A stretch of 64,000 nucleotides of DNA from a virus (IMGVR_UViG_3300024520_000050:32001-96000); one strand, 5' to 3'. Numbered from the stretch's first letter, positions 7,888 to 57,181 are shown. Made by a program: numbers and translations. The notes: generated from the letters alone by a model not told the origin.

Positions 7888-8631
7888 ATGAAAAAGAAAT
7901 TTTACATGGATACTGAGTTCCATGAATATCAAAAAGATACTACATTACTAAAGGATGCAATTAATTCATCAAGTGTACATCAAACATTAATTGATACAAT
8001 TGAATTAATATCAATTGGTATTATAGATGAAGACGGAAATGAATACTATGCAATATCTAATGAATTTGATATAGATGATGCATGGAATAATGAATGGTTA
8101 AGAGATAATGTACTTAAGAATTTATTTGATAGTAAGATATCAGGTAATAAAACAAGTAGAGAATCAATGACTATTAAGAACTTTAAATCTTATATACTTT
8201 GTTGTGGTAAATCTAAATATCAAATAAGAGAAGAAATTAAATCATTTTGTGTAAATGGAGATTATACTGATGTGAAAAAGAGAATGGATGAAGGTTTAGA
8301 AACTATAGAACCTATTCCAGTTAATGATTACGAATTCTATGCCTACTATGGTGATTACGATTGGGTTGTATTCTGTTGGTTATTCGGAAGAATGATTGAC
8401 TTACCTAAAGGATTCCCAATGTATTGTAAAGATCTCAAGCAATTATTAGATGGTAAAGCAGAACTATTAAAAAAGAAAATATCTAATAGATTCTCTAAAG
8501 GTTTAGATTTTGATGAAGTATTATTTATTAAATCATTACATAATTATCCAACACAAGATAATCTCCATAATGCATTAGATGATGCTAAATGGAATAAAAA
8601 ATTACATGAATTTTTAAATGAATTGCAATGA
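7888..8631 (+). CDS. DEDDh 3'-5' exoribonuclease (Rv2179c/DUF5051-like)
   Basis: MDTEF, ELISIGII, YYGDYDWV and HNALDDAKW motifs. Confidence 0.85.
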   Translation: MKKKFYMDTEFHEYQKDTTLLKDAINSSSVHQTLIDTIELISIGIIDEDGNEYYAISNEFDIDDAWNNEWLRDNVLKNLFDSKISGNKTSRESMTIKNFKSYILCCGKSKYQIREEIKSFCVNGDYTDVKKRMDEGLETIEPIPVNDYEFYAYYGDYDWVVFCWLFGRMIDLPKGFPMYCKDLKQLLDGKAELLKKKISNRFSKGLDFDEVLFIKSLHNYPTQDNLHNALDDAKWNKKLHEFLNELQ

Positions 8632-8789
8632 TGAAATGGATCAAACAATTATTCTGTAAACACAATTATGAGAAAACATATAGTATTCATGGAGATATGA
8701 TTATTATGACAGGATATAAAAGAAGTGTATGGAGATGCACTAAATGTAAAAAACATAAATTTAGTAACTATTTAAATAAATTAAAATGA
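8628..8789 (+). CDS. 53-aa Zn-ribbon protein (DUF1660-like)
   Basis: MMKWIKQLFCKHNY...WRCTKCKKHK, with ATGA overlaps at both ends. Not in the ORF track. Confidence 0.75.
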   Translation: MMKWIKQLFCKHNYEKTYSIHGDMIIMTGYKRSVWRCTKCKKHKFSNYLNKLK

Positions 8790-9133
8790 AACAAGTAAAA
8801 GAAAATGCAGTAGTAGCAAATAACTCACATTCATATTCAGTTAATACATATACAGTTGGCCCTAATGGATTAGAAATAACTGGTGCTCAACCTATTAATT
8901 TAGTACGTGGATCTAAAGTAGATGGTGAAAATATACTTTCTAAACAAGATGGATTCTTAACTGAACAATTACTATGGATTGCACAAAATTATCTATCAGA
9001 AGTAAATGTAGGTGATATGAAGACTAGAGAAACATCAATTGCTATTACTAAGATACAAGAGGCATTAATGTGGATTAATAAGCGTCATGATGATAGAGTA
9101 GAACGTAAGGTGTTAAATACTTATAATAAATAA
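8786..9133 (+). CDS. tad1: Tad1-like immune-signal sponge (anti-Thoeris family)
   Basis: C-terminus DGFLTEQLLWIAQNYL...G...RETSIAITKIQEALMWINKRHDDRVERKVLNTYNK follows the Tad1 signature as I recall it (G-x4-LL-x-I...RE-x3-A-x-T-x3-EALMW-x-N-x-R-x2-DR-x-ER-x-VL-x-T). The N-terminal HxY is also present. Confidence 0.75.
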   Translation: MKQVKENAVVANNSHSYSVNTYTVGPNGLEITGAQPINLVRGSKVDGENILSKQDGFLTEQLLWIAQNYLSEVNVGDMKTRETSIAITKIQEALMWINKRHDDRVERKVLNTYNK

Positions 9134-9579
9134 TGATAAATAAGAAACATAAGCAAAGCATTCGTAAGTTATTAAGTGGTACTAATCTTGATCACTGGAG
9201 TTTAGCATTACAGATATTAACTGGTCAACTTAGTCGAGATAACGCTGAATCAATGATACTACAGTATATTATTAATATACATAATTATAAGATTGAGAGT
9301 AAAATGACAAGTAGTATTAGAACTTGGATTAAAGAGAAAATAATTAATGAGAAATTAATTAATTATTTCAATAGAACCTTTAAATACATAACTGGATTAC
9401 GTGAGCAATTAACAAATGGTCATACTGTACAACATAACGGAGTTCTTACATTATGTCAACTTGAAGACTGGTTTGACTCTATTATTACATCACGCAAACA
9501 AAAAAGTATTACATTGTCATGTGGAAAAGAAATAGCAGAACTATTTGATGAACTAATAAAAGAAGAAATAAATGTATAA
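9133..9579 (+). CDS. Chimeric protein carrying a 56-aa copy of an internal MCP segment
   Basis: Residues 88-143 align to MCP 314-372 with 29 identities (hand alignment, one 3-aa gap). Confidence 0.85.
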   Translation: MINKKHKQSIRKLLSGTNLDHWSLALQILTGQLSRDNAESMILQYIINIHNYKIESKMTSSIRTWIKEKIINEKLINYFNRTFKYITGLREQLTNGHTVQHNGVLTLCQLEDWFDSIITSRKQKSITLSCGKEIAELFDELIKEEINV

Positions 9580-11818: not shown

Positions 11819-14284
11819 ATGTATAAAACCAAACAAGACTTAAAGAATATACAATTAGAATATGATAAAGGTGTTTTACTTCCAACAGCAAAAGAGAAGT
11901 TGATAATTAATCCTAAGATAGCATATGAGGTAACTAATATTGATGTTAAACAATCAATACCTGAACATGCTATATTAAAAAGGATTGAACCTGTATATGG
12001 TATAATCAGTGACTTCTCTAAAGAATATACTCCGGTAGATAATCTATTGTGGGACTATTTATATTTTACTGATTCTAAATTATTCGCACCTGCAGGAGAA
12101 GCATTCATGAAAAGTCTTAATGCTACTAAAGGTAAGACTGGGTTAAAACCAACATATACTAAACACTTACCCGGAACAACAGCATACAACAGATTCTGGG
12201 AAGAAGAGTTCCTTCGTATAACAAAAGGATATGAACCAGAAATAGATGGTAAACCTTGTGGTATTAAGATACCTGGTGAGTTTTATTTTTATCTGAATTA
12301 TGGTTGGATGCAAAAAGTAGAGTTCAATGATAAAGGAGAAGTAATAAGTGATAAGTCAGGTGTTCCTGATTTTCTATCGATGGATTATTACTTCTATAAA
12401 GAATTAGAAGCTAGAGAAAATCCTGCTAAATATAATCTACCTTTTGAATATAAACAATCTATGTCAATTACTAAGTCTCGTCGTAAAGGATTTAGTTATA
12501 AAGCAGGGTCAGGAGCAGTATGGTGTACAGCATTTAGAGACAAAGCAAAAGTCCTTATTGCGTCAGCTCAAGGAAAAGATGCTACCTTGTGCTTTCAGAA
12601 AGCAATGGATATTATTGATCATATAACATTATATACTCCTTTTGGTAGAAAGAATCCAGGACATCCAAGTTCTAATGGAGGTTGGAAGCATATGACAATG
12701 AGTCAAACTAAGGATCATGGCGAGTTTGTTTTCGGGTTAATTAATACTCGTACAAGAATGAAGAAAGGAAGACGTAGTGAAATAGTTACAGCGTCTTTAT
12801 TTAATAAACCAGATGCTGCTTCTGGTGAAGGTCTTACAAGACTATATATAGAGGAAGCAGGAAAGATATCTAATTTAGCTGATGCATGGGTATTCTCATT
12901 AGAATCAATGCGTGTAGGTTCTGTATATCGTTCAGGGATTGCAGTAATATTTGGAACTGGTGGATCTATGGTATCTGCTTCAGGGAAGAAAGGTTCATCG
13001 CAAGATTTTGCTAATATGAATGATAGACCTGAATCAGTAGGATTAGCTGCATTTAAAAACATATATGAATATAAACCTACACAACGTAAATGTGGTTTCT
13101 TTGTATCTGATATGTGGGCTAACTTTGGTTCTAAGATAACCATAGATGGTAAAGTGCATTATGGTTTAGATAAAAATGGTAATGCATGTTTTTGGGTTGC
13201 TGAATTAGCATTAAATAAAGAACGTGCAGGTAAACGACCACCATTAGGTAAGAAAAGAATATTTGATAAATTCCTTACACAACGTTGTAAAACCCCAGCA
13301 GAAGCATTTCTTATTACAACTGGTAGTCGATTTCAAACTGAAGATCTTGTTGAACGTAAGACTAAAATAGCTATATCACGAGGAGGATTTGAATCATTAC
13401 GGATGCCAGGTGAATTAGTAGACATAGATGGTCGAGTAGAGTTTATACCTAAACCTCATGAAGAACCATTATTAAATACATATAATGAAGCAGAAAGAGA
13501 AGGTTGCTTCTTAAGATATGAACCACCATTAAAATTAGGTGGATCAATACCAGATGATGCATATATTATTTCAGTGGATCCAATTGGTATTAATACAGAT
13601 ACAGGTGGATCATTGACGGCTATTATTGTATTTAAGACAAGAAAGTATGAATCATGGTTAGGTCCTGAAAAGATTGTAGGTATTTACTTTGGTCGTAAGA
13701 AACTTAATCCACAAGGATATGTACATAGATTATTACTTAAATTATCTAAATATTATAATGCTAAGATAACTATAGAGAATGATAGAGATGGTGGTATACC
13801 TCAATACTTTATTCGTAAAGGAGAAGCTGCTAGATTAATGGGACCTCCTATTACTACAATGGAGAAGATTATGCCAGGTAGTAAAACATCACGTAGACCG
13901 TATGGTCATTCAATGTCAACAGTTCGACATAAACAAATTGGAGAAGATTTATTATATGAATGGTTAGATTTACGTGGATCTAATATAACTTATTATGATG
14001 AAGAAGATGGTGAAAAGACTATTGAATCAGGATTACGTAATATAGATAGATTAGAAGATCAACTACTAATTGAACAATTAATTAAGTACGAACGTGGTGG
14101 TAACTACGATTTAGTTATGGCAATGATGGGAATTGTAGTTCAATTAAAAGAATGGTACGATCCAGAAGATACAGATCCATATGAAGAAAATAGTATATCA
14201 GATCAACTTAATAAATGGAAAGTAAAACGATTTGGCTCATATGAAGACAAATTAAAATATAACAAAAGAAAATTTAAACGATAA
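11819..14284 (+). CDS. terL: Terminase large subunit
   Basis: Walker A-like TKSRRKGFSY, Walker B LYIEEAG, RNase H-like IISVDPIG and YDLVMA. Confidence 0.93.
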   Translation: MYKTKQDLKNIQLEYDKGVLLPTAKEKLIINPKIAYEVTNIDVKQSIPEHAILKRIEPVYGIISDFSKEYTPVDNLLWDYLYFTDSKLFAPAGEAFMKSLNATKGKTGLKPTYTKHLPGTTAYNRFWEEEFLRITKGYEPEIDGKPCGIKIPGEFYFYLNYGWMQKVEFNDKGEVISDKSGVPDFLSMDYYFYKELEARENPAKYNLPFEYKQSMSITKSRRKGFSYKAGSGAVWCTAFRDKAKVLIASAQGKDATLCFQKAMDIIDHITLYTPFGRKNPGHPSSNGGWKHMTMSQTKDHGEFVFGLINTRTRMKKGRRSEIVTASLFNKPDAASGEGLTRLYIEEAGKISNLADAWVFSLESMRVGSVYRSGIAVIFGTGGSMVSASGKKGSSQDFANMNDRPESVGLAAFKNIYEYKPTQRKCGFFVSDMWANFGSKITIDGKVHYGLDKNGNACFWVAELALNKERAGKRPPLGKKRIFDKFLTQRCKTPAEAFLITTGSRFQTEDLVERKTKIAISRGGFESLRMPGELVDIDGRVEFIPKPHEEPLLNTYNEAEREGCFLRYEPPLKLGGSIPDDAYIISVDPIGINTDTGGSLTAIIVFKTRKYESWLGPEKIVGIYFGRKKLNPQGYVHRLLLKLSKYYNAKITIENDRDGGIPQYFIRKGEAARLMGPPITTMEKIMPGSKTSRRPYGHSMSTVRHKQIGEDLLYEWLDLRGSNITYYDEEDGEKTIESGLRNIDRLEDQLLIEQLIKYERGGNYDLVMAMMGIVVQLKEWYDPEDTDPYEENSISDQLNKWKVKRFGSYEDKLKYNKRKFKR

Positions 14285-17062: not shown

Positions 17063-18625
17063 ATGCATAAAACAACAAGTACAATATTAACTGGAGTTAA
17101 TCTTCTGGTTGATACTGTTAAACAAACACTAGGAACAAAAGGTCGTACTATTTTATTTAATGATGAGAACAATAGAACTCACATTACTAAAGATGGTGTG
17201 ACTGTTGCTCGTCATATCTTTTCAGAAGATGATTATGAGAATATGATAATTACTGTATTACGTGAAGCATCACTTAAGACTATGAAGTCAAGTGGAGACG
17301 GCACTACAACAACAATGATACTTGCTCAATATATTATTAATGAAGGACTTAAATTACTTGATGAAGGATTAAGTTTTTATGAAATGAGTCGTCAAGTTGA
17401 TGAAGCTGTCAAAGATGTAGTAGATTATATTAATAATACTTCAATTAAAATAGAAGATAATCAAGAATTACTTCGTGAAATTGCAGCTATTTCTTCTAAC
17501 GATGAAAAGCTTGGAGATTACATTTATTCAATCATAGAAGAGATTGGATTATATGGAGATATTGAAGTTAAAGAATCTCAATACTCTGAAACTCGTAAGA
17601 TTCAAACTAAAGGAATGAAGTTACATAAAGGTTGGATGGAGAACTTTATGATGAATGATCCACGTGAATTAAAATTTAAAGCAAATGATTGCCATATTCT
17701 TATTATTGATGATATCATTCAAGCTATTACTGATATTGATCAGTATATTAGACACCTTAATGGAAAACCGTTGGTAGTATTCTGTGATGAGGTTACAGAT
17801 ATTACATTATCCCAAATTCAAAAATGGATGAGTACTACAGGTTATCCTGCATGTTTCGTCCACAATGATGGACACGGAGAACGTAAACAAATATTAATGA
17901 ATGATCTTGCTGCATTAACATCAGCATATGTTATTTCTGCACAAGATCCATTTGATCCTGATAATTTAGGATTCACTGGACAGATACAAGTTGGTGAATG
18001 GCATACATCTATATTAGATGGTGAAAGTGATACGGATATGATTGAAGCTATTACATATGATATTCAAGAAATATTAAATGATGATGCAAATGATGATGAA
18101 ACATTAATTACTAATGTAGATCGTAAGTTTCATAAAAAACGCTTAGCTAATTTAACAGGTGGATTAGCAGTAATTCATGTGGGTGGACGTACACAAATGG
18201 AGATGAAAGAATTGAAGGATAGATTTGATGATGCTGTATTGGCTGTAGGAAGTGCTATTAAACAAGGAGTTAATGTTGGGGGTGGTTCTACTTATATTAA
18301 CTGTCAGAAGATACTAAATAAAAGATATAAGGAATCTAAAGGTAGAGGATATAAATTAATTATAGATTCACTTGATTCCCCATTCAAACAATTATTAACT
18401 AATGCTGATCTATCTAGTCAATTTGGATTTTATAAGAATCAACTTACTAAAGGTAAAGCATTAGATCTTCGTGATAATAAATTATATAACCTTGCAACAA
18501 CAAAATATACAGTGTATGATCCATCATCTGTATTGATTGATTCGTTAATTAATGCAACTGCTGTAGCAAAATCATTACTATCTATAAAAGATGTACTTTT
18601 TGATGGAAAGAAACTAGGCGGTTAG
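17063..18625 (+). CDS. groEL: Phage-encoded group I chaperonin (GroEL-like)
   Basis: TLGTKGR, ITKDGVTVA, GDGTTT, RLANLTGGLAVIHVGG, EMKELKDRFDDAV and GGG. No GGM tail. Confidence 0.95.
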   Translation: MHKTTSTILTGVNLLVDTVKQTLGTKGRTILFNDENNRTHITKDGVTVARHIFSEDDYENMIITVLREASLKTMKSSGDGTTTTMILAQYIINEGLKLLDEGLSFYEMSRQVDEAVKDVVDYINNTSIKIEDNQELLREIAAISSNDEKLGDYIYSIIEEIGLYGDIEVKESQYSETRKIQTKGMKLHKGWMENFMMNDPRELKFKANDCHILIIDDIIQAITDIDQYIRHLNGKPLVVFCDEVTDITLSQIQKWMSTTGYPACFVHNDGHGERKQILMNDLAALTSAYVISAQDPFDPDNLGFTGQIQVGEWHTSILDGESDTDMIEAITYDIQEILNDDANDDETLITNVDRKFHKKRLANLTGGLAVIHVGGRTQMEMKELKDRFDDAVLAVGSAIKQGVNVGGGSTYINCQKILNKRYKESKGRGYKLIIDSLDSPFKQLLTNADLSSQFGFYKNQLTKGKALDLRDNKLYNLATTKYTVYDPSSVLIDSLINATAVAKSLLSIKDVLFDGKKLGG

Positions 18626-19959: not shown

Positions 19960-21561
19960 ATGTCAGTAAAAAACTTTGAGAATGCTAAAGCGATCCATAA
20001 TGGACAACTTCGTCCAACTGTATTAACAGATGGCCTTTTAGCAACTGGTGAGATTACTGGTCTACACTTAAGCCAAGCTTTCGGTAGTACTGAAAATCTT
20101 GCGACAATTAATATGGGTTATGCACAAATCTTTAGTGCAACTAACCGATATCACAGCAAGCCTATCCTTGGAATGACTGAGGCTAAAGGTAAAGTAAAAA
20201 CAATTAATCGTAGAGGTTTCCGTTGGGAACTATCTGGAGGTAACACACAAAAAGCTCGTATTACACGTGTTGTTTGTACTGATGCTCGTCCAGGTCTACA
20301 TTTACAAACTTTTGATATCGTAGTTGATAAGCCATGGTTTAACGTATCTGATATTATTATTCCTCAGAATAATAAACGTCAATGTCGTGTAAGTACTTTT
20401 GGTAACGGTCAATCACGTAGACATCATCAAGTAGGACCTAACGCTTATCGTTATACTATTCAATACATTACTAATAACGGTAATGAATTCTTACCCGCCA
20501 AGTATATCCAAGAAGGACAAGAATGGTGTAAAGTTTCTAGTGCTGTAGGTGATGAAGATAACATCGATGCTGGTGGATTCCAATTCTACTCAATCTTCGA
20601 AAGTGAAGGTCAAATCCAACAACATGCAATTAAGGTAGAAGTATCTGATAAAGCTGCTCGTCGTGCGAAACAAGCACAAAAAGATGGTAGTGATACAGAT
20701 GAATTCGGTAAATATCTTAAGATGTTATGGGTTAAGTATGAAGACAAAGTAACAGGTGAACCAATGCACCGTTTCATGGCTTTATTAGATGCAGAAGCAT
20801 ATAATGAGTTATACCAAAACGTTGAATGGACATTAATCTTCGGTAAGACATCTAATAACATGGTGACACCAGAAGGACATCAAATCTTAACTGCTTCAGG
20901 ATTACGTCAACAATTAGAATCAGGTTATACACTTGAGCATAATGGTACATTATCTTTAGAAGAATTAGAAGACTGGTTTGATTCAATTATGAAAGACAAA
21001 CTTTCAGAAGGTGAGCAAAAAATCGTTTTATCTGCCGGTCGTGAATTCCGTAAGATGTTCGATAAGATGATCAAAGTAGATGCTAGAGCATTTACAACTA
21101 TTGATACATTATTCCTTCGTAAAGGAGACAACTTCCGTCATATGGATTTTGGTTCTTACTTTGCATCTTATAAAGGTTTCACAGTTGATATTTCTGTAAT
21201 GGAAAATCCAGCTTACGATAATCAATACTACTGCCCACAAATGCACCCAGTGCGTACAGAGGTTTGTATCGATTCATGGAGAGCTGATATCTTGGACTTC
21301 GGATCAAGTAAACAACAAGGAACTGGAGGAGAAACAGATAATATCTGTATGATTCAAGAGTCATACTGTGACTACAATATCACTTACAACGGTAAATGGT
21401 ATGGAGCACATGATGGTAAATCAGGTCAACCAATCACAGATGGTGGTTTAGGACAAGGTGGTGGAGTCTCAGGATATTCTATCCTAAGAGAGAAATCAGC
21501 TGGACTTATGGTTGCTGATGTAACTCGTTGTGGATCAATCTTCTTATCTTTTGACGATTAA
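19960..21561 (+). CDS. Major capsid protein (HK97 fold, crAss-like)
   Basis: 533 aa, position in the head module, Lys/Arg- and Gly-balanced codon usage (CGT, GGT) typical of a highly expressed gene, and motifs QIQQHAIK and GLRQQL..G..L.HNG. Confidence 0.88.
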   Translation: MSVKNFENAKAIHNGQLRPTVLTDGLLATGEITGLHLSQAFGSTENLATINMGYAQIFSATNRYHSKPILGMTEAKGKVKTINRRGFRWELSGGNTQKARITRVVCTDARPGLHLQTFDIVVDKPWFNVSDIIIPQNNKRQCRVSTFGNGQSRRHHQVGPNAYRYTIQYITNNGNEFLPAKYIQEGQEWCKVSSAVGDEDNIDAGGFQFYSIFESEGQIQQHAIKVEVSDKAARRAKQAQKDGSDTDEFGKYLKMLWVKYEDKVTGEPMHRFMALLDAEAYNELYQNVEWTLIFGKTSNNMVTPEGHQILTASGLRQQLESGYTLEHNGTLSLEELEDWFDSIMKDKLSEGEQKIVLSAGREFRKMFDKMIKVDARAFTTIDTLFLRKGDNFRHMDFGSYFASYKGFTVDISVMENPAYDNQYYCPQMHPVRTEVCIDSWRADILDFGSSKQQGTGGETDNICMIQESYCDYNITYNGKWYGAHDGKSGQPITDGGLGQGGGVSGYSILREKSAGLMVADVTRCGSIFLSFDD

Positions 21562-50209: not shown

Positions 50210-53200
50210 ATGAAGTGTAAGATAATATATAAGAGAGATCCAAATACTCTTAAAATTACAGATGAAATACAAGCAGTGAAGGCTCCCAATGGTAAGAGGA
50301 GCCTTCTATATGATGCTATACGTAATCAAATAAATAATGATACTAAAGCATTAACTCAATACTTTAAGGTTTATACTGATGAGTTTAAAGAGGATTTTGG
50401 TGATTGGGAGATGACTACAATAGATAGAGATGAATCAATAAATGATATTAAAAATTCTTATAAATTAGTAATTGAAAATAATGATAAAATTGAAGATTTA
50501 AATATTGATATTGAAGATGCTATTCAATTTGATAAGAATAATATTAATAGTGTCACACAAAAAAGTAAAGATATTATTGAACAGGTTAATAAAATTAGAT
50601 GGCAGGTTAGAAGAGTTAGTGATGGACTTTTGCGTGAAGAGTGGGAACAATGGTCCCAATCTGCATACGACGAAGTTAAATCTGAACTGAGTACTGATTT
50701 TTTAAGCACCATTGACGAAGGTCCCATGAAAGGGAGTATTAGTCCGGGAAGTGCGAGCAATCTTTTAATATTTAGATATTTATATCCTAAAAATAAAGGC
50801 ATCACTACAGATCAAGAACTTTTTGTAGGTGCGTTTATACAGCAAATATTAGATTGGAATGTAGATGGAAATTCGTCCTTATTGAATAAACTTAATAAAG
50901 AGAATGAAGCACTAACTGATAGTTTGAATGATAACCTAAAAAGCATTATCATTAATCCAGAAGAATTAAATAATATTTCATCACTTATTACAAGTTCTGA
51001 TGAAAGTAATCAATCTCTTGGATTAGAGATTCTTAATAACTATGTAAATGACAAACTAGATCAAAACGGTGAACCTAAATATGATGAAGTAAAGGATTTA
51101 TTTATTGATGAAGAAGTTGATGAAGGAATTACTGTGAAGGAAGGTGTTGATGATGTATTTAAAGATAATAAAGAGTTATCTAAAATAGGTACACAAGAAG
51201 AATATAGTCAATATTTGGATAGTATATTTCCTGATAGTAAGGTTAAAGATATTGTTTATCATGGAACTGATAAGGAATTTGATAAATTTGAATTACAGAT
51301 TATACCAAAAACAGCGTGGACTAAAGAACTACCCGGATTTCATTTTACAAACAATAAAGCTGTCGCCAAAAGTTATTTTAACACAAAAGAAAGAGTTAGT
51401 AATTTAATACCATTGTATTTACATTTAAATAAATTTGCTGCCGATGGTAAACTTTTAACAGAACAAGAGTTTGATGATATTAAAGCAGATAATGATTTAC
51501 ATACTGAAATAATGCAACAAGTTCATTATTATGGTGGGATGGGAATTGATAATGTTAAAACTTATAATGAGTATAAAAGACTCTTTACAGAATTCTCTAA
51601 AGATGAAGGTTTTGATGGAATGACGAGCATAAGTGATATATTTGATCTTCAACAAGATGAGTATGAAGCTGAAAGAGAAGCTGAACATTTTGGTCGTCCT
51701 TTTACAAGTACCTTTAAAAATCCTCTTGATAAATATAAGAAGTCTGAACCTAAAGTATTAAAGTCAGTTATATTAAATATAGAAAATCCTTTACTTGTAA
51801 ATGATATATCAGGTCAAAGATATGTTCAAAATGTGGAAAATATAAAAAGTAAAATTGAATCTACTAATGATGGTATTATTGCAAAAGATGTACTCGACGC
51901 ATTAGAGGATAAAGAGGGTACTTATCATGGTGATACAATAGTTGCATTTGATAATGAGCAAATTCACATATTAGGTTCTAAAAAAGACATCCAAGGATTC
52001 AAAGATTATAAATCTAATATTGATCAAGATATTAGTCCAAAAATTATTTCTCCTTCTGATAAGATCATTTATGGTCATCCAGGTATAGGTAAAACTACAG
52101 CATTGAAAGCTAATAAAGATCAATTTATTGATTGGGATGTTGAGTTTAATAAGAAGAGAGATAAATGGATTGAGAATAAAAGTAAATCTAAAAAAGGTAC
52201 TCCTAGTTATAAAAAAGCAAGAACTAAATATCTTGTTAATTATAAAGACAATCCTGATTATATGACTTTTGTAACTAAAGAATGGGGTAGAGCAAAAGCA
52301 AAAGCTAAGAAAGAAGGTAAGCAATTATTTGCTTCACCTCATATATTACTTGATTTATTTCCTAATGACTTTGATAAAGTTATTAATATGAATGATGAGC
52401 TATTTATAAAAAGAGATATAGATAGAGGTGGAATTGAGCAAAGTGCACGATTATGGAAAGAAGGTATTAATAAAACATTATCAAAAATATCTCCATCTAA
52501 GATTGTAACTACAGATAAATATTTATCTGAGATATTAGCATCCGATGAGGTATCTAAAGTAGAAGATACTGATCAATATTCACTAACTTCATCATCTATA
52601 AAACACCAAGGTCAACCTACAACAGTATCTAAAACTGATACAGTTAAAATTGATACTGATCCATTTAAATCTCAATTAAATGATGATGGTTATACGCAAG
52701 AACAAATTAAGATATTAGATACTTATAACGCAGCTACATCATCACTTACTGGTAATACAATTAAAGTTAAAGTGTCTGAATTACCTGCTAACTTACGTAA
52801 AATATTTGAATTAAAAGGTGAAGAATATGCTGAAGTATATGAAACTATTGATCACGAAACAGGTAAGAAAGGATATATAAATTATCGTGTATCTAATTTA
52901 CAAGATTTAAAGAAAGTAAAAGGACAAACTCAAAAGGTAGCTACAGCACAAGAACAAAACCCTAAATCTGTAATATCTAGACAACGTGGTACAGAAATGC
53001 ATAGTATACAAGAGAAGTTCTTAAGTCATTTTGCATTATCTGATAATGATACTTTTAATATAGATACTCTTAGAAAATCTGATGCTAATATATGGGCTCC
53101 TGAAGCACTAGCTGAATTTAAAAAAACAGCTGAATATAGAAAGATATGGGAAGAATCAATAGATATATTCTTAACTAAGTCGAAATCAAATAGAGAAGGA

Positions 53201-56200
53201 AAAACCTGGTCTACACATAATGCATCATTACAAGTTGATAAATTAGCTATGTCTATGTTACATTTGTATCATCAAATACAAATGACTCAACAAGCTATTA
53301 ATCTTGAGACAGGTAAGAATAATAAACCTATATTTATATTAGAGAAACCATTCCTAGATTTAGGTAATGATGTTGCAGGAACAATGGATATTTTTGTAAT
53401 ATTCAGTGATGGTAGTGCATCTATTTATGATCATAAATTTACTGATTTACAAGCAGAAAGAAAATACTTCAAGAATCCATCTACAGAGAAGAAAGCTGAA
53501 ATAGATCGTATTAGAAAAGCACAAGGGCTTCCAGTTAATCCAGAAACTAATTGGTACTTTCAATTACCTAATAATCTTAAATTATTTAAGAAAGAAGAAT
53601 CATGGAATGCTCAGATAGGACGTTATGCTCAAATGGCAAAACAATTGTACGGAGTTACACATATTAGACAAGCACGGATTTTACCTGTAGCTACAACTTA
53701 TACAAGAGTGGATAGTAAACGTGAGGATAAGAATGGTGATACTATTATGCATGTTGGTCCTGGATCACAAGTAGAAGTATTATTAACTGGTATTAATGAT
53801 GATTTAGGAGTAAGTCAAATAGCATTGAATATAGAACGTACAGGCGATGTAAATCTTGATAGATTTATTGATATGCTTATTAAGAATAAAGAAACTCTTA
53901 AAAGAGAGATGAAAAGTAAGAATGCATATGGAGATCCTAAATATGTTAATCGTATTAAAGGATTAGATGAATCTATTCAGGCATTATTGAAGAGTAGAGA
54001 TATTACACATATATCTGAAGCAATTGATGCATTGGCTAAACAAATTGAAAATGATTTAGATCCAAATGCAGAAGATCCTATTACATTTGAACAAATCATA
54101 CTTCATCTAGGTGACATTAATATGTTTAATACATTTATTGAATTGTCAGGTAATGAGATTGATAAACTTGAAGATAAAGCTAATAAGGAAGCTGAGGAAG
54201 CTAAAGAAAGAGGAGAAGAACCTAAAGAAAATCCTTATGTTACATTTAAAAATAGATTATCTGCTGCTAATTTTGCTTTGACTAATCAAGCTAGAAGGAT
54301 GCATGATAAGATGACACTTATGGTAGAAGAGATAAATGAAAAAGGTGGTTATATGAATGAAGGATTATTTAAATCATTTACCAAGCAGAAGGATATGAGT
54401 GGCGTGGGTGTACAATTTACTCATTTACGTGAGTCTAATCATCCCATTATATCTTTATTTAGTCAATTACTTGATAACATTGAAACTAATGTTATGTTAG
54501 AACGTAGTAAATTAGAACAAAAGTTAAAGAAAATAAATAAAGAATTAACTGAATGGGGTAGTTCAAAGGGATTAACTGGACCTGCTATATATAATGATAT
54601 AATTGATGATGAGTTTGGTAATTTAATTCGTAAGTTTACTAATTTTAAAAAAGATTTATTTGAAGATTATTCTGATCCTAAAAATCATAAGAAGAACATT
54701 GTATGGTTCAAAGAAAACTTTGAGCGTTCTGCTTCGGCTGAGAAGATATTCCAGAACAAATACAAACAAATACAAGAATATTGGAAAAGAGAAACCAAGG
54801 GTGATAAAAACGAATATAAGAAAGAAATACAAAACTGGTTGAATCAAAATGATATCACTCATGCACAAGGTGATAATAAAGCCTGGTATAATCCATTTGT
54901 GCAGCACTGGTTGACTCCAAAGAAACCAGACGACTATTATACTGATGAGTATAAGAACTTGCTTAAAGCGGAGAATAAACCGCTATTAGATTTCTATAAT
55001 ATTTACATTGAGCAAATGAATATGTTAGCTCAAAAAGCTGATTTTAGGATATATGAAAATGCTATTCCTAATATTAGAAAGGATATGATCGACACAATGG
55101 TTCAAGATGGAATGTTTTTAGGTGGCAAACAACAAATTGAAAATATAAGAAATTGGTGGTCTAAGACTGATACTGATGATGGGATGCAAACTATACTTAC
55201 TGAAGATGGATTAGAACGTAGTGTTCCTATTTTCTATCAAAATAATGTAGGTAAAGATAACAAGTCATTTGACTTAGCTAAATCATTAATGTTGTTCTCT
55301 GACTTTGTACATAAGTATGATGGTATTAAAAATATTGAACATGCATCATTAGCGATGAGAGAATTAGTTAGTAAAACAGCAGGTATTAAATCAACTATAA
55401 CAGGGGCTATATTGCGTAGTGAATCTGGAGAGATGTTAGTTAAAGATGGTGCTAGTGCAAGTAATGATAAAACACTTAGTGCATTTGACACGTGGATTGA
55501 TTACTATATTTATGGTGAGAGGAAAAAAGGAAATGTTAAATTGAATAAAGCTGTTGATGCTGTAACTGCAATATCTAGTAGAAAAGGAGTTGCACTTAAT
55601 CTTATTAGTGCAATGGGAGGACATGTAAATGCTGAAGCACAACTTCAAATGATAGCTAAAAAGACTACTTATTTTACAACTGACACTCTTAGTAAAGCTA
55701 GACGTCAAGTTAAATTAGGTATTCCTGCTTTACGTAAATCAAAAGAAGCTAACGAAATGTTACATAGTAAAGTTGTTTTTGCTAATTTATTCTTTGAACC
55801 ATCTCAAGAAGATATGAGTCATGAGAAAGCAAATAGCATGAGCTTATCTAAATTACGTAATAATTCATTAATGGGTAAAAAAGATTATGCTTACATGCTA
55901 CAACGTTATTCTGATGATATTATAGATAATACAACCATGACAGCTATGATGATGGATTATGGGATTGATCCTATTACAGGTAAGACATATCCTTTATCTA
56001 GATTGAAAAAGGTGTATGGAGAAAATGAAAGTGAATTTAAACCTGGAGTAAGATATAAAGATATTGAATTTAAATCATTATGGGATATGACTATGATGAA
56101 AGATGGAGATGTAGATCTTGGTACTGGTAAAACGGTAAGTATTAAACTTGCTGAAGATGGTACTCCGCAAATGATAAATCAATTTACAGAAAAAGCTATT

Positions 56201-57181
56201 GATAGTAAAACATTCACTGATTTTAGACGTAAGACTAAACAAATGATAGCTCGTACTAAAGGTAATATGTCAGCGGATGATATTGCTGGTTATAAAACTC
56301 ATTGGATTGGCAGGTTAGTAATGCAATTCCGTGGTTGGATTCCTGCTACATTGACGGAACGATTTAAAGGATTACAATATAATTTAACTATGGAACAAAT
56401 GGAAGTAGGTAGATTTGTTGCTGTTAGGAATATGGTTGGTAAAAACCTCAAACGTGTAACAGGACAATTTGTAAAAGAATTACTTCCTTTCATGAGAGGT
56501 AATTTTGGGGATGGAAAAGTGATGAGTGATGTCTTAGATGAACAATCTCCATTGGAGTTAAAATACAAGCAATTTATAGCCGATAATCCACACCTTAAGC
56601 CTGATCCTGAAAACCCTACATTAGATCAAGTAACATATGAGGATTTCTTTAATAGTCATGTTGGTGAAATGAGAGCATTAGCTAAAGAAGTGCAGATATA
56701 CTTAGCATTAGCTGTAGCATTAGGTTTACTAACTCTTGCATCAGGAGATGATGAATTGAAAGCTAATCCGTTACTCCGAGGTCCATCTGCTTTATTAGAA
56801 AGAGCAATGTTAGAGATTGGATTTTTTATTCCTGTTGCTGGGATACCTGAACAGATGACATTATTTACAAGAGCTCCTGCAGCATCAATAAGTTTATTCC
56901 AAGCTGCAGGTTATACTGCAAAGAATACATTCACTGAAGCATATGATTTATTTACTGGTGCTGGTTCTGGAAAAACATCAGTACCTACATTAGGAGATAA
57001 ACCTTGGACGTTAGATTATTCTAAACGTAATGATACATCTGCTCCATTTAAACATACAATTGGGTGGATACCACCACTTAAATTTATAGATAATATTATT
57101 GGATTTACTAATACTACTAAACGTGAAGACACTTGGTATGAGTATTTCCAGAATAGAAACAATGCTGATATTATGAGGTAA
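50210..57181 (+). CDS. Large polyvalent cargo protein (ART-like, P-loop, PD-(D/E)XK, helical C-terminus)
   Basis: APNGKRS...FGDWE; VYHGT...GFHFT...AKSY; GHPGIGKT; RGTEMH...AGTMD...IYDHKF...QIGRY; LVMQFRGWIP. Confidence 0.75.
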   Translation: MKCKIIYKRDPNTLKITDEIQAVKAPNGKRSLLYDAIRNQINNDTKALTQYFKVYTDEFKEDFGDWEMTTIDRDESINDIKNSYKLVIENNDKIEDLNIDIEDAIQFDKNNINSVTQKSKDIIEQVNKIRWQVRRVSDGLLREEWEQWSQSAYDEVKSELSTDFLSTIDEGPMKGSISPGSASNLLIFRYLYPKNKGITTDQELFVGAFIQQILDWNVDGNSSLLNKLNKENEALTDSLNDNLKSIIINPEELNNISSLITSSDESNQSLGLEILNNYVNDKLDQNGEPKYDEVKDLFIDEEVDEGITVKEGVDDVFKDNKELSKIGTQEEYSQYLDSIFPDSKVKDIVYHGTDKEFDKFELQIIPKTAWTKELPGFHFTNNKAVAKSYFNTKERVSNLIPLYLHLNKFAADGKLLTEQEFDDIKADNDLHTEIMQQVHYYGGMGIDNVKTYNEYKRLFTEFSKDEGFDGMTSISDIFDLQQDEYEAEREAEHFGRPFTSTFKNPLDKYKKSEPKVLKSVILNIENPLLVNDISGQRYVQNVENIKSKIESTNDGIIAKDVLDALEDKEGTYHGDTIVAFDNEQIHILGSKKDIQGFKDYKSNIDQDISPKIISPSDKIIYGHPGIGKTTALKANKDQFIDWDVEFNKKRDKWIENKSKSKKGTPSYKKARTKYLVNYKDNPDYMTFVTKEWGRAKAKAKKEGKQLFASPHILLDLFPNDFDKVINMNDELFIKRDIDRGGIEQSARLWKEGINKTLSKISPSKIVTTDKYLSEILASDEVSKVEDTDQYSLTSSSIKHQGQPTTVSKTDTVKIDTDPFKSQLNDDGYTQEQIKILDTYNAATSSLTGNTIKVKVSELPANLRKIFELKGEEYAEVYETIDHETGKKGYINYRVSNLQDLKKVKGQTQKVATAQEQNPKSVISRQRGTEMHSIQEKFLSHFALSDNDTFNIDTLRKSDANIWAPEALAEFKKTAEYRKIWEESIDIFLTKSKSNREGKTWSTHNASLQVDKLAMSMLHLYHQIQMTQQAINLETGKNNKPIFILEKPFLDLGNDVAGTMDIFVIFSDGSASIYDHKFTDLQAERKYFKNPSTEKKAEIDRIRKAQGLPVNPETNWYFQLPNNLKLFKKEESWNAQIGRYAQMAKQLYGVTHIRQARILPVATTYTRVDSKREDKNGDTIMHVGPGSQVEVLLTGINDDLGVSQIALNIERTGDVNLDRFIDMLIKNKETLKREMKSKNAYGDPKYVNRIKGLDESIQALLKSRDITHISEAIDALAKQIENDLDPNAEDPITFEQIILHLGDINMFNTFIELSGNEIDKLEDKANKEAEEAKERGEEPKENPYVTFKNRLSAANFALTNQARRMHDKMTLMVEEINEKGGYMNEGLFKSFTKQKDMSGVGVQFTHLRESNHPIISLFSQLLDNIETNVMLERSKLEQKLKKINKELTEWGSSKGLTGPAIYNDIIDDEFGNLIRKFTNFKKDLFEDYSDPKNHKKNIVWFKENFERSASAEKIFQNKYKQIQEYWKRETKGDKNEYKKEIQNWLNQNDITHAQGDNKAWYNPFVQHWLTPKKPDDYYTDEYKNLLKAENKPLLDFYNIYIEQMNMLAQKADFRIYENAIPNIRKDMIDTMVQDGMFLGGKQQIENIRNWWSKTDTDDGMQTILTEDGLERSVPIFYQNNVGKDNKSFDLAKSLMLFSDFVHKYDGIKNIEHASLAMRELVSKTAGIKSTITGAILRSESGEMLVKDGASASNDKTLSAFDTWIDYYIYGERKKGNVKLNKAVDAVTAISSRKGVALNLISAMGGHVNAEAQLQMIAKKTTYFTTDTLSKARRQVKLGIPALRKSKEANEMLHSKVVFANLFFEPSQEDMSHEKANSMSLSKLRNNSLMGKKDYAYMLQRYSDDIIDNTTMTAMMMDYGIDPITGKTYPLSRLKKVYGENESEFKPGVRYKDIEFKSLWDMTMMKDGDVDLGTGKTVSIKLAEDGTPQMINQFTEKAIDSKTFTDFRRKTKQMIARTKGNMSADDIAGYKTHWIGRLVMQFRGWIPATLTERFKGLQYNLTMEQMEVGRFVAVRNMVGKNLKRVTGQFVKELLPFMRGNFGDGKVMSDVLDEQSPLELKYKQFIADNPHLKPDPENPTLDQVTYEDFFNSHVGEMRALAKEVQIYLALAVALGLLTLASGDDELKANPLLRGPSALLERAMLEIGFFIPVAGIPEQMTLFTRAPAASISLFQAAGYTAKNTFTEAYDLFTGAGSGKTSVPTLGDKPWTLDYSKRNDTSAPFKHTIGWIPPLKFIDNIIGFTNTTKREDTWYEYFQNRNNADIMR

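What the first reader, a model, noticed from the sequence alone, without database searches (positions are those of the whole stretch)
8786..9133. Divergent Tad1-family sponge in a crAss-like phage
The C-terminal EALMW...R..DR.ER.VL.T ligand-binding segment, including its Arg residues, is retained. The segment I recall as SFQ...RENAC in Bacillus-phage Tad1 reads EVN...RETSI here, so the metal-binding Cys and some pocket residues differ. It may have altered signal specificity (gcADPR isomers, His-ADPR, cyclic di- or trinucleotides).
Basis: partly seen in the sequence, partly recalled or inferred. Interest (0 to 1): 0.7.

Follow-up and report, generated by a model that had tools for sequence, protein, structure and literature searches.

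The report
Tad1-type immune-signal sponge, crAss-like phage
This small gene of a large uncultured crAss-like phage encodes a genuine relative of Tad1, a phage protein that soaks up bacterial alarm nucleotides, but it belongs to a large untested branch of the family in which half of the known ligand-contact residues are replaced in a conserved way.

Summary
The ORF at 8786-9133 (+), 115 aa, is real and is a full-length Tad1 (Thoeris anti-defence 1) homologue. It matches CbTad1 by sequence (E 5e-11; family profile 2e-31). The AlphaFold model (pLDDT 93) matches only Tad1 structures (Z 10.4, TM 0.74-0.76). The phage is crAss-like (capsid protein PF23898, 2.8e-38) with a 178-kb genome.

The SFQ...RENAC comparison sequence is the Clostridium botulinum prophage Tad1, not the Bacillus phage one. 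The "metal-binding Cys" has no support.

All residues of the cyclic-trinucleotide site and hexamer interface are kept, as are the two phosphate-clamp arginines. Six of the eleven published gcADPR contacts differ (F82V, N92T, R78Y, F87M, H29N, N122Y). These replacements are not private. They characterise a 124-tip clade (of 235 sequences) that excludes the CbTad1-like sequences in the tree. Members of that clade lie just upstream of crAss-type terminase genes.

Most likely this is a hexameric sponge that binds cyclic trinucleotides, with a second pocket of altered, unknown specificity. It is a new member of a known family, of moderate interest. Ligand binding is untested.

The parts
8786..9133 (+). 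Tad1-family gene, 115 aa plus stop; single copy in the 178-kb phage record
   Evidence: ORF. phmmer to CbTad1 E 5e-11. Family profile to CbTad1 2e-31 and CmTad1 5e-20. PF24729 27.8 bits against a cut-off of 27. phrog_2428 2e-12. Only one copy in the genome.
8810..8902 (+). N-terminal antiparallel beta-sheet (residues 9-39), the part that distinguishes Tad1 from all-helical hairpin-domain proteins
   Evidence: DSSP on the AlphaFold model gives strands 9-11, 16-25 and 28-39. VIA alignment to CbTad1 covers model residues 1-115.
8909..8953 (+). beta4-alpha1 loop (G42 to G56); G42 and K44 correspond to CbTad1 G55 and R57; the loop is 4 residues longer than in CbTad1
   Evidence: Family consensus I.F..G places G42 opposite G55. 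In the R57 column the query clade has K in 87 of 124 tips.
8960..9004 (+). Helix alpha1 (residues 59-73), carrying Y69 (CbTad1 R78) and V73 (CbTad1 F82)
9026..9082 (+). First part of helix alpha2 (residues 81-99). It holds the cyclic-trinucleotide site R81/T88, the hexamer-interface residues K89, Q91, E92, M95, W96 and K99, and T83 at the CbTad1 N92 position.
   Evidence: Ungapped alignments to CbTad1 and CmTad1 chains. Residue roles from Li et al., bioRxiv 10.1101/2023.11.15.567273.
9083..9130 (+). Phosphate-clamp arginines R100 and R104 and the C-terminal lid (L110, N111, T112, Y113)
   Evidence: R100 and R104 are invariant in 154-155 of 158 aligned homologues. Roles from Leavitt et al., bioRxiv 10.1101/2022.05.03.490397.
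7888..8789 (+). Two upstream genes joined to the Tad1 gene by overlapping stop/start codons: a DEDD-type exonuclease-like gene (7888-8631) and a 53-aa CxxC-type ORF (8628-8789)
   Evidence: ORF ends. phrog_2259 3.1e-46 and phrog_7696 4.6e-8.
9133..9579 (+). Downstream gene whose start overlaps the Tad1 stop; function not examined here
   Evidence: Weak phrog_11589 (major head protein) match E 0.005. Earlier scan notes e1-5856968 and e1-5856985.
11819..14284 (+). Large terminase subunit (phrog_6681), 2.7 kb downstream. The same Tad1-then-terminase order recurs in related viral contigs.

Best explanation
The gene encodes a Tad1-family sponge, a small protein that protects the phage by sequestering nucleotide alarm signals made by bacterial defence systems. 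By homology it should form dimers that assemble into a hexamer. The hexamer interface and the two three-fold pockets that bind cyclic trinucleotides (cA3/cAAG type) are kept residue for residue. The most secure functional prediction is therefore sequestration of cyclic trinucleotides, which would blunt CBASS-type immunity. The second pocket, at the dimer interface, holds gcADPR or cyclic dinucleotides in characterised Tad1 proteins. Here it keeps the two phosphate-clamping arginines and the C-terminal lid, but the adenine-stacking, adenine-reading and ribose-linkage-reading side chains are replaced. Those replacements are conserved across a large clade. I infer that this pocket is functional but tuned to a phosphate-bearing signal other than, or bound differently from, gcADPR. 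Shown here: homology, fold, residue conservation, clade structure and gene context. Inferred: oligomeric state, every ligand, and the anti-defence effect.
For: The match to solved Tad1 proteins is full length: phmmer E 5e-11 and profile 2e-31 to CbTad1, 5e-20 to CmTad1. The AlphaFold model has pLDDT 93.2 with the Tad1 topology of a beta-sheet plus two long helices. The 20 Foldseek hits at E <= 0.001 are all Tad1, and the next hit is at E 0.077. VIA gives Z 10.4, rmsd 3.4 A over 106 residues; the first non-Tad1 chain scores Z 5.1. R81 and T88 equal CbTad1 R90/T97, whose mutation abolishes cA3 binding. K89, Q91, E92, M95, W96 and K99 equal CmTad1 K96, Q98, E99, M102, W103 and K106 of the hexamer interface. 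R100 and R104 equal R109/R113 and are invariant. In the 124-tip clade around the query, the pocket replacements are themselves conserved: T at N92 in 101 tips, V at F82 in 79, N at Q83 in 103, Y at N122 in 102, Y/H at R78 in 89. In that clade these pocket positions are better conserved than the trinucleotide site (R81 in 71, W96 in 76). That argues the pocket is under selection, not decaying. Close relatives P0005 and P0007 have lost R81, T88, M95 and W96 but keep V73, N74, T83, R100, R104 and Y113.
Against: No binding or anti-defence assay exists for this protein or, as far as I could find, for any member of its clade. The CbTad1 double mutant F82A/N92A loses gcADPR and 2'3'-cGAMP binding, so the dimer pocket could simply be inactive. 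Li et al. treat F/N-substituted homologues as non-binders. The gene sits in the long rightward gene block that holds the structural genes, not among obvious early genes. The oligomer could not be modelled with the tools available. The N-terminal part of the alignment (H29, R57 equivalents) is less certain than the C-terminal part.
Confidence: 0.75

Rival explanations
1. It is an ordinary anti-Thoeris Tad1. The remodelled pocket still binds 3'cADPR/gcADPR, using V73, T83, Y69 and Y113 in place of F82, N92, R78 and N122, so specificity is unchanged.
For: All ten diverse homologues tested by Leavitt et al. inhibited type I Thoeris. Hadary et al. report that inhibition of CBASS and type I Thoeris is widespread among 20 Tad1 homologues drawn from IMG/VR, the collection this record comes from. 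R100, R104, the G42 backbone and the lid are kept.
Against: Six of eleven contacts differ, including the adenine stack, the Hoogsteen reader and three of the four residues that read the ribose-ribose linkage. The stored part of Leavitt's homologue tables contains RENA 109 times but RETS and VNVG never, so this clade was probably not among their tested proteins.
Confidence: 0.3
2. It is a half-disabled sponge. Only the cyclic-trinucleotide site works, and the dimer pocket has decayed and binds nothing.
For: F82A/N92A abolishes pocket binding in CbTad1. Li et al. class F/N-substituted homologues as lacking the CDN/gcADPR site. The query keeps an intact R81/T88 site.
Against: The replacement residues are conserved across 124 clade members, and the arginine pair is invariant. 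Relatives that lost the trinucleotide site still keep the remodelled pocket. That is the opposite of what decay predicts.
Confidence: 0.15
3. It is a virion-associated protein with a Tad1-like fold, packaged in the head either as a structural element or as cargo, rather than a free cytoplasmic sponge.
For: The Tad1 family profile matches residues 130-228 of PhiKZ gp184 (PDB 8y6v_I, E 6.8e-9). gp184 is a minor capsid protein on the inner capsid surface (PMC11297242). Several Bacillus phage homologues are annotated 'putative structural protein'. Here and in nine related contigs the gene lies 0-3 kb upstream of the terminase gene.
Against: gp184 carries an extra N-terminal region of about 130 residues that the window protein lacks. 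All ligand-site and hexamer residues that matter for sponge function are conserved here. The annotations are unverified. Packaging and sponge activity are not mutually exclusive.
Confidence: 0.1
4. It is an Acb2-family (anti-CBASS 2) protein rather than Tad1, because the Pfam match is to the hairpin domain shared by both families.
For: The Pfam hit is PF24729 Acb2/Tad1 hairpin, covering only residues 79-99 and barely above the cut-off.
Against: No Acb2 chain appears in the PDB sequence searches at E <= 10 (single sequence) or E <= 1 (profile). All significant fold matches are Tad1. The model has the N-terminal beta-sheet of Tad1.
Confidence: 0.02

Closest known systems
CbTad1, Thoeris anti-defence 1 of a Clostridium botulinum prophage (PDB 7UAV, 7UAW, 8SMD, 8KBE-8KBH)
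   Same: Similar length and the same fold: Z 10.4, about 31% identity over 106 aligned residues. It shares the cyclic-trinucleotide residues R90/T97, the arginine clamp R109/R113, the M-W hexamer contact and a C-terminal lid with L119 and T121.
   Different: F82V, N92T, R78Y, F87M, H29N, N122Y, R57K and C94I. The beta4-alpha1 loop is 4 residues longer. The host phylum and phage type differ: a crAss-like lytic phage rather than a Firmicutes prophage.
CmTad1, Clostridioides mangenotii prophage Tad1 (PDB 8KBB-8KBD)
   Same: All eight residues named for its hexamer interface and cA3/cAAG site (R88, T95, K96, Q98, E99, M102, W103, K106) are identical in the window protein. Fold Z is 8.9.
   Different: Weaker overall sequence match (E 1e-4). 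A Zn ion is reported in the CmTad1 crystal structure. No ligand set for it could be identified in the texts read, and the window protein has no cysteine at all (sequence).
SBSphiJ7 Tad1, the founding member from a Bacillus phage
   Same: About 38% identity over the C-terminal 61 residues. Same RE..A.AITK..EALMW..KR core.
   Different: SBS Tad1 is 142 aa and has the F/N pocket (YFQ...RENAM). It binds 3'3'-cGAMP, cUA, cA3 and gcADPR. The window protein has V/T at the F/N positions.
PhiKZ gp184, an inner minor capsid protein (PDB 8Y6V chain I)
   Same: Its C-terminal 100 residues match the Tad1 family profile (E 6.8e-9).
   Different: It is 230 aa with an added N-terminal region, and it is found in the capsid vertex complex. 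No sponge activity is reported in the paper read.

Membership tests
Tad1 (Thoeris anti-defence 1) family | Significant full-length sequence similarity to experimentally characterised Tad1 proteins | tested here: met
   phmmer E 5e-11 to CbTad1 over residues 22-114. Profile of 102 relatives E 2.1e-31 to CbTad1 and 5.2e-20 to CmTad1. tblastn hit to the annotated SBSphiJ7 Tad1 gene.
Tad1 (Thoeris anti-defence 1) family | Fold: N-terminal antiparallel beta-sheet followed by two long C-terminal helices | tested here: met
   AlphaFold model pLDDT 93.2 with strands 9-39 and helices 59-73 and 81-106. Foldseek TM 0.74-0.76 to CbTad1. VIA Z 10.4.
Tad1 (Thoeris anti-defence 1) family | Pfam PF24729 (Acb2/Tad1 hairpin) above the gathering score | tested here: met
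   27.8 bits against a cut-off of 27, residues 79-99 only; 28.4 bits in the genome scan. This is a marginal pass.
Tad1 (Thoeris anti-defence 1) family | Phosphate-clamp arginines (CbTad1 R109, R113) | tested here: met
   R100 and R104 in the ungapped alignment. Invariant in 154-155 of 158 homologues.
Tad1 (Thoeris anti-defence 1) family | Adenine stack and Hoogsteen reader (CbTad1 F82, N92) | tested here: not met
   V73 and T83. The F82A/N92A mutant of CbTad1 loses gcADPR and 2'3'-cGAMP binding. This is a feature of the characterised clade (F in 77 and N in 90 of 111 tips), not of the whole family.
Tad1 (Thoeris anti-defence 1) family | Readers of the ribose-ribose linkage of gcADPR (CbTad1 H29, G55 backbone, R78, N122) | tested here: not met
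   N20, G42, Y69 and Y113; only the glycine is kept. The H29 column lies in the less certain N-terminal part of the alignment.
Tad1 (Thoeris anti-defence 1) family | Cyclic-trinucleotide site (CbTad1 R90/T97; CmTad1 R88/T95) | tested here: met
   R81 and T88.
Tad1 (Thoeris anti-defence 1) family | Hexamer (trimer of dimers) interface residues | tested here: met
   K89, Q91, E92, M95, W96 and K99 are identical to CmTad1 K96, Q98, E99, M102, W103 and K106. The oligomeric state itself could not be modelled or measured.
Tad1 (Thoeris anti-defence 1) family | Binds and sequesters an immune nucleotide and thereby inhibits Thoeris or CBASS | not testable with these tools
   Needs purified protein and plaque assays.
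Acb2 (anti-CBASS 2) family | Best sequence and fold matches to Acb2 structures | tested here: inconclusive
   No Acb2 chain was listed, while every significant hit is Tad1. The shared hairpin domain means a distant relationship is expected.
crAss-like phages (Crassvirales), for the phage that carries the gene | Crassvirus-type major capsid protein, portal and large terminase | tested here: met
   PF23898 Crass_capsid 2.8e-38, 132 bits, for 19960-21558. The portal has 22-25% identity over about 80-99% of its length to crAss-like phages, including Cellulophaga phage phi14:2. phrog_6681 terminase and phrog_6547 portal.

The most novel reading that the evidence does not exclude
The window protein represents a large, mostly phage-borne clade of Tad1, linked to crAss-type terminase genes and nearly absent from bacterial genomes. 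Its dimer pocket has been rebuilt (Y69, V73, N74, T83, S84, Y113 around the invariant arginine pair) to capture an immune signal that characterised Tad1 proteins do not bind. That signal could be one not yet identified in Bacteroidota. As with Tad1 and gcADPR, the protein could then serve as a trap to purify and identify the signal.
Probability: 0.3. Interest if true: 0.7.

Novelty: new member of a known kind. Interest (0 to 1): 0.45.

Why it matters
Counter-defence genes of crAss-like phages, among the most abundant phages known, are poorly charted. The paper library held no description of Tad1 in them. A tblastn search of 50,697 deposited phage genomes gave 61 records with hits, none of them a crAss-like phage.

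The result places a signal sponge in an environmental branch of this group, and the gene keeps a conserved position next to the terminase gene. It also shows that the F/N-substituted Tad1 proteins, previously counted as pocket-deficient, form a coherent clade with its own conserved pocket. That makes them a sensible next target for ligand screens.

Sponges have repeatedly led to the discovery of new immune messengers. A differently tuned Tad1 from Bacteroidota phages could therefore point to a signal used by their hosts.

Tried and rejected
- The contigs of the closest relatives (P0002-P0007) could not be read, and no dN/dS could be computed.
- **Failed locus search.** The search for related loci with the 102-sequence alignment failed for lack of a conserved stretch. 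A 12-sequence alignment worked.
- **Script problems.** A slow MAFFT setting timed out and was rerun. That version mapped columns wrongly because insert columns had been dropped. It was corrected by motif anchoring; only searches are used.
- **Metal-binding Cys.** I looked for it in Li et al. and Leavitt et al. A Zn ion is mentioned only for the CmTad1 crystal, with no ligand residues named. 'Cysteine' and 'zinc' do not occur in the text.
- **Missing supplements.** The supplementary tables of Hadary et al., which would show whether this clade was among their 20 tested Tad1 proteins, are not held.
- **Uninformative searches.** A STING-domain search in 121 Flavobacteriaceae genomes found nothing, but neither did the controls. 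The sigma-70 promoter scan gave 48 sites against 53 expected, and no terminator-like site lies between 7888 and 9579.
- **Tad2.** A Tad2 gene (PF11195) was not found in the phage.
- **Acb2.** Acb2 membership was considered and set aside.

Full report
**The object.** The window holds an ATG-to-TAA ORF at 8786-9133 on the + strand, 115 aa. It is the third of four genes joined by overlapping stop and start codons:
- 7888-8631, an exonuclease-like gene (phrog_2259, 3.1e-46);
- 8628-8789, a 53-aa ORF with CxxC pairs;
- 8786-9133, the gene in question;
- 9133-9579.

All lie in the long rightward gene block that continues with an amidase-type lysin, the large terminase (11819), portal, a phage GroEL and the major capsid protein.

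**The phage.** The window is bases 32001-96000 of a 178,400-base IMG/VR virus record, rated complete by CheckV.
- The major capsid protein matches Pfam PF23898 (Crassvirus major capsid protein) at 2.8e-38, 132 bits.
- The portal matches crAss-like phages, including Cellulophaga phage phi14:2, at 22-25% identity over most of its length.
- Terminase and portal fall in phrog_6681 and phrog_6547.

The phage is therefore a distant, large-genome crAss-like phage. Its host is unknown. Four hints point to marine Flavobacteriia:
- G+C content near 32%;
- a 119-base stretch at 83% identity to Cellulophaga phages;
- the best full-length cultured-phage Tad1 matches, which are in Cellulophaga phages phi17:2 and phi4:1;
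- a 55%-identical relative from a Tara Oceans surface viral fraction.

**Family membership.**
- A plain phmmer search of all PDB chain sequences returns only Tad1 proteins: CbTad1 at E 5e-11 over residues 22-114 and CmTad1 at 1e-4.
- A scan of 1.84 billion cluster representatives found 299 relatives at E <= 0.001.
- A profile of 102 of them hits CbTad1 at 2.1e-31 and CmTad1 at 5.2e-20.
- Pfam gives PF24729 (Acb2/Tad1 hairpin) just over its cut-off.
- The AlphaFold model built on that alignment has mean pLDDT 93.2, a three-stranded N-terminal sheet and two long helices. This is the topology described for Tad1.
- The 20 Foldseek matches at E <= 0.001 are all Tad1 chains (TM 0.66-0.76), and the next hit has E 0.077.
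- VIA-align gives Z 10.4, rmsd 3.4 A over 106 residues to CbTad1, and Z 8.9 to CmTad1. The first unrelated chain scores Z 5.1 and covers only the helical hairpin.
- No Acb2 chain appears in any of these lists.

**Residue mapping.** The C-terminal 59 residues align to CbTad1 without gaps. Query residue n corresponds to CbTad1 residue n+9 and CmTad1 residue n+7. Residue roles come from Leavitt et al. and Li et al..

- *Kept.*
  - R100 and R104 (CbTad1 R109, R113) clamp the diphosphate, and R109 also stacks on the adenine.
  - R81 and T88 (R90, T97) bind the phosphates of cA3; their mutation abolishes cA3 binding.
  - K89, Q91, E92, M95, W96 and K99 are identical to the CmTad1 hexamer-interface residues K96, Q98, E99, M102, W103 and K106.
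  - G42 (G55), L110 (L119) and T112 (T121) are also kept.
- *Changed.*

| CbTad1 residue | Window residue | Role in CbTad1 |
|---|---|---|
| F82 | V73 | adenine stack |
| N92 | T83 | reads the adenine Hoogsteen edge |
| F87 | M78 | buttresses the adenosine ribose |
| R78 | Y69 | reads the ribose-ribose linkage |
| H29 | N20 | reads the ribose-ribose linkage |
| N122 | Y113 | reads the ribose-ribose linkage |
| R57 | K44 | diphosphate contact (conservative change) |

The loop between G42 and G56 is four residues longer than in CbTad1. So six of the eleven published gcADPR contacts differ.

**Errors of detail in the finding.** SFQ...RENAC is the CbTad1 sequence; the Bacillus phage SBSphiJ7 protein reads YFQ...RENAM. 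The Cys of RENAC is not described as a metal ligand in either paper. Its CmTad1 counterpart M92 makes hydrophobic contact with the cA3 bases. The column is I, L, M, V or C across the family, and the window has I85. A Zn ion is mentioned only for the CmTad1 crystal.

**The substitutions are a clade character.** I aligned 235 non-identical homologues to the family HMM. They came from cluster representatives, IMG/VR loci and GTDB genome loci. I built a FastTree tree from the alignment. With midpoint rooting, the query falls in a clade of 124 tips (support 0.785). That clade excludes the CbTad1-like sequences P0150 and P0109.

| CbTad1 position | Query clade (124 tips) | Other clade (111 tips) |
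|---|---|---|
| N92 | T in 101 | N in 90 |
| F82 | V in 79 | F in 77 |
| Q83 | N in 103 | Q in 77 |
| R78 | Y or H in 89 | R in 100 |
| F87 | L, V or M in 115 | F or Y in 93 |
| N122 | Y in 102 | variable |
| R57 | K in 87 | R in 41 |
| H29 | P in 94 | H in 67 |

R109 and R113 are invariant in both clades.

Within the query clade the remodelled pocket is better conserved than the trinucleotide site (R81 in 71 tips, T88 in 80, W96 in 76). The 53-55% identical relatives P0005 and P0007 have lost R81, T88, M95 and W96 yet keep V73, N74, T83, R100, R104 and Y113. This pattern fits a pocket under purifying selection with a different chemistry, not a decayed pocket.

Caveats: the sample is biased towards the query. 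The tree is a quick approximate-likelihood tree on 112 columns. The root is arbitrary.

**Context in relatives.** In nine IMG/VR loci (L003, L006-L012, L053) the Tad1 homologue lies 0-3 kb upstream of a terminase gene. In L006 and L007 the two genes abut. The five of these terminases scanned (L003, L007, L008, L011, L053) fall in the same PHROG as the window's, phrog_6681. L012 also shares the DUF1573-like gene and the lysin. So the position ahead of the packaging genes is conserved in this phage group.

Among 64 hits in 185,579 species-representative bacterial and archaeal genomes, only two carry the VN...TS form. Both are short MAG contigs (L083, L084). The F/N or L/N form occurs in many phyla, often inside long chromosomal contigs. 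This fits a clade carried by non-integrating phages. It may also explain why the stored part of the homologue tables of Leavitt et al., drawn from prokaryotic genomes and gut viruses, contains RENA 109 times and RETS or VNVG never.

Li et al. noted that 12% of nr Tad1 homologues have substitutions at the F/N or R/R positions, and coloured them as lacking the CDN/gcADPR site. Hadary et al. collected 1,587 Tad1 homologues from IMG/VR and tested 20, reporting only CBASS and type I Thoeris inhibition. Their tables are not held, so I cannot tell whether this clade was sampled.

**Mechanism.** The best-supported reading is a hexameric Tad1 sponge.
- *Step 1, homology and fold:* shown here.
- *Step 2, hexamer formation and binding of two cyclic trinucleotides per hexamer:* inferred from complete identity of the named residues. 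All four Tad1 proteins tested by Li et al. bind cA3/cAAG.
- *Step 3, a second ligand in the dimer pocket:* inferred to carry phosphates because of the arginine pair. It is inferred to differ from gcADPR, or to be bound differently, because the base- and linkage-reading residues are replaced.

Which signal that is cannot be told from sequence. Enzymes with the CD-NTase-type SMODS domain occur in 16 of 121 sampled Flavobacteriaceae genomes. Cyclic-oligonucleotide signalling is therefore plausible in the presumed host group, but the host is not established.

**Rivals.**
- An ordinary gcADPR binder, with specificity unchanged.
- A protein with only the trinucleotide site active.
- A virion-associated protein. 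The Tad1 profile matches the C-terminal 100 residues of PhiKZ gp184 (E 6.8e-9), an inner minor capsid protein. The gene here also sits with the packaging genes.
- An Acb2-family protein, which is effectively excluded.

**Verdict.** The protein is a new member of the known Tad1 family in a phage group where I found no earlier description. What goes beyond routine annotation is the clade-wide, conserved remodelling of the gcADPR/dinucleotide pocket and the conserved position next to the terminase gene. Nothing about ligand binding has been tested. Interest is moderate.

Noticed in passing
PDB 8y6v chain I (PhiKZ gp184); no window coordinates: The Tad1 family profile matches residues 130-228 of PhiKZ gp184 (E 6.8e-9). 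gp184 is a protein of the inner capsid vertex complex whose larger part was not resolved. A Tad1-like domain therefore seems to be packaged in a jumbo phage head. The capsid paper does not mention this.
   Followed up: partly
P0052 (230 aa homologue from the representative search): Some members of the query's clade are fusions of an N-terminal RyR (ryanodine-receptor repeat) domain (E 6e-22 to RyR chains) and a C-terminal Tad1 domain. Many other relatives are 150-300 aa with unexamined N-terminal extensions.
   Followed up: partly
window 7888-9579: Four genes are linked by overlapping stop and start codons (ATGA, ATGA, TAATG): a DEDD-type exonuclease-like gene, a 53-aa CxxC ORF, Tad1, and a 148-aa ORF with a weak major-head-protein match. 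This may be a counter-defence cassette. The neighbours are not conserved next to Tad1 in the related loci, except for a DUF1573-like gene and a lysin in L012.
   Followed up: partly
window 50210-57181: The 2323-aa protein carries an ART-PolyVal ADP-ribosyltransferase domain (PF18760, 1.5e-8) at residues 348-471. It has no PHROG match.
   Followed up: no
window 17063-18625: The phage encodes its own GroEL-type chaperonin (phrog_5725, 1.8e-104) between the portal and capsid genes.
   Followed up: no
L003:3594-6980: The terminase gene next to the Tad1 homologue of this IMG/VR contig is 1129 aa. It has an insert of about 380 residues that matches helicase-loader, primase and other terminase PHROGs. 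It may be an intein or a mobile insertion.
   Followed up: no
window 8334-8452: A 119-base stretch of the exonuclease-like gene is 83% identical at the DNA level to Cellulophaga phages phi19:3, phi18:3 and phi46:3. This is a hint to a marine Flavobacteriia host or to gene exchange.
   Followed up: no
P0005 and P0007 (53-55% identical relatives; P0005 lies on a 174-kb contig and in a Tara Oceans surface sample): These close relatives have lost the cyclic-trinucleotide and hexamer residues (R81, T88, M95, W96) but keep the remodelled dimer pocket. Sister phages may therefore carry dimer-only versions.
   Followed up: partly
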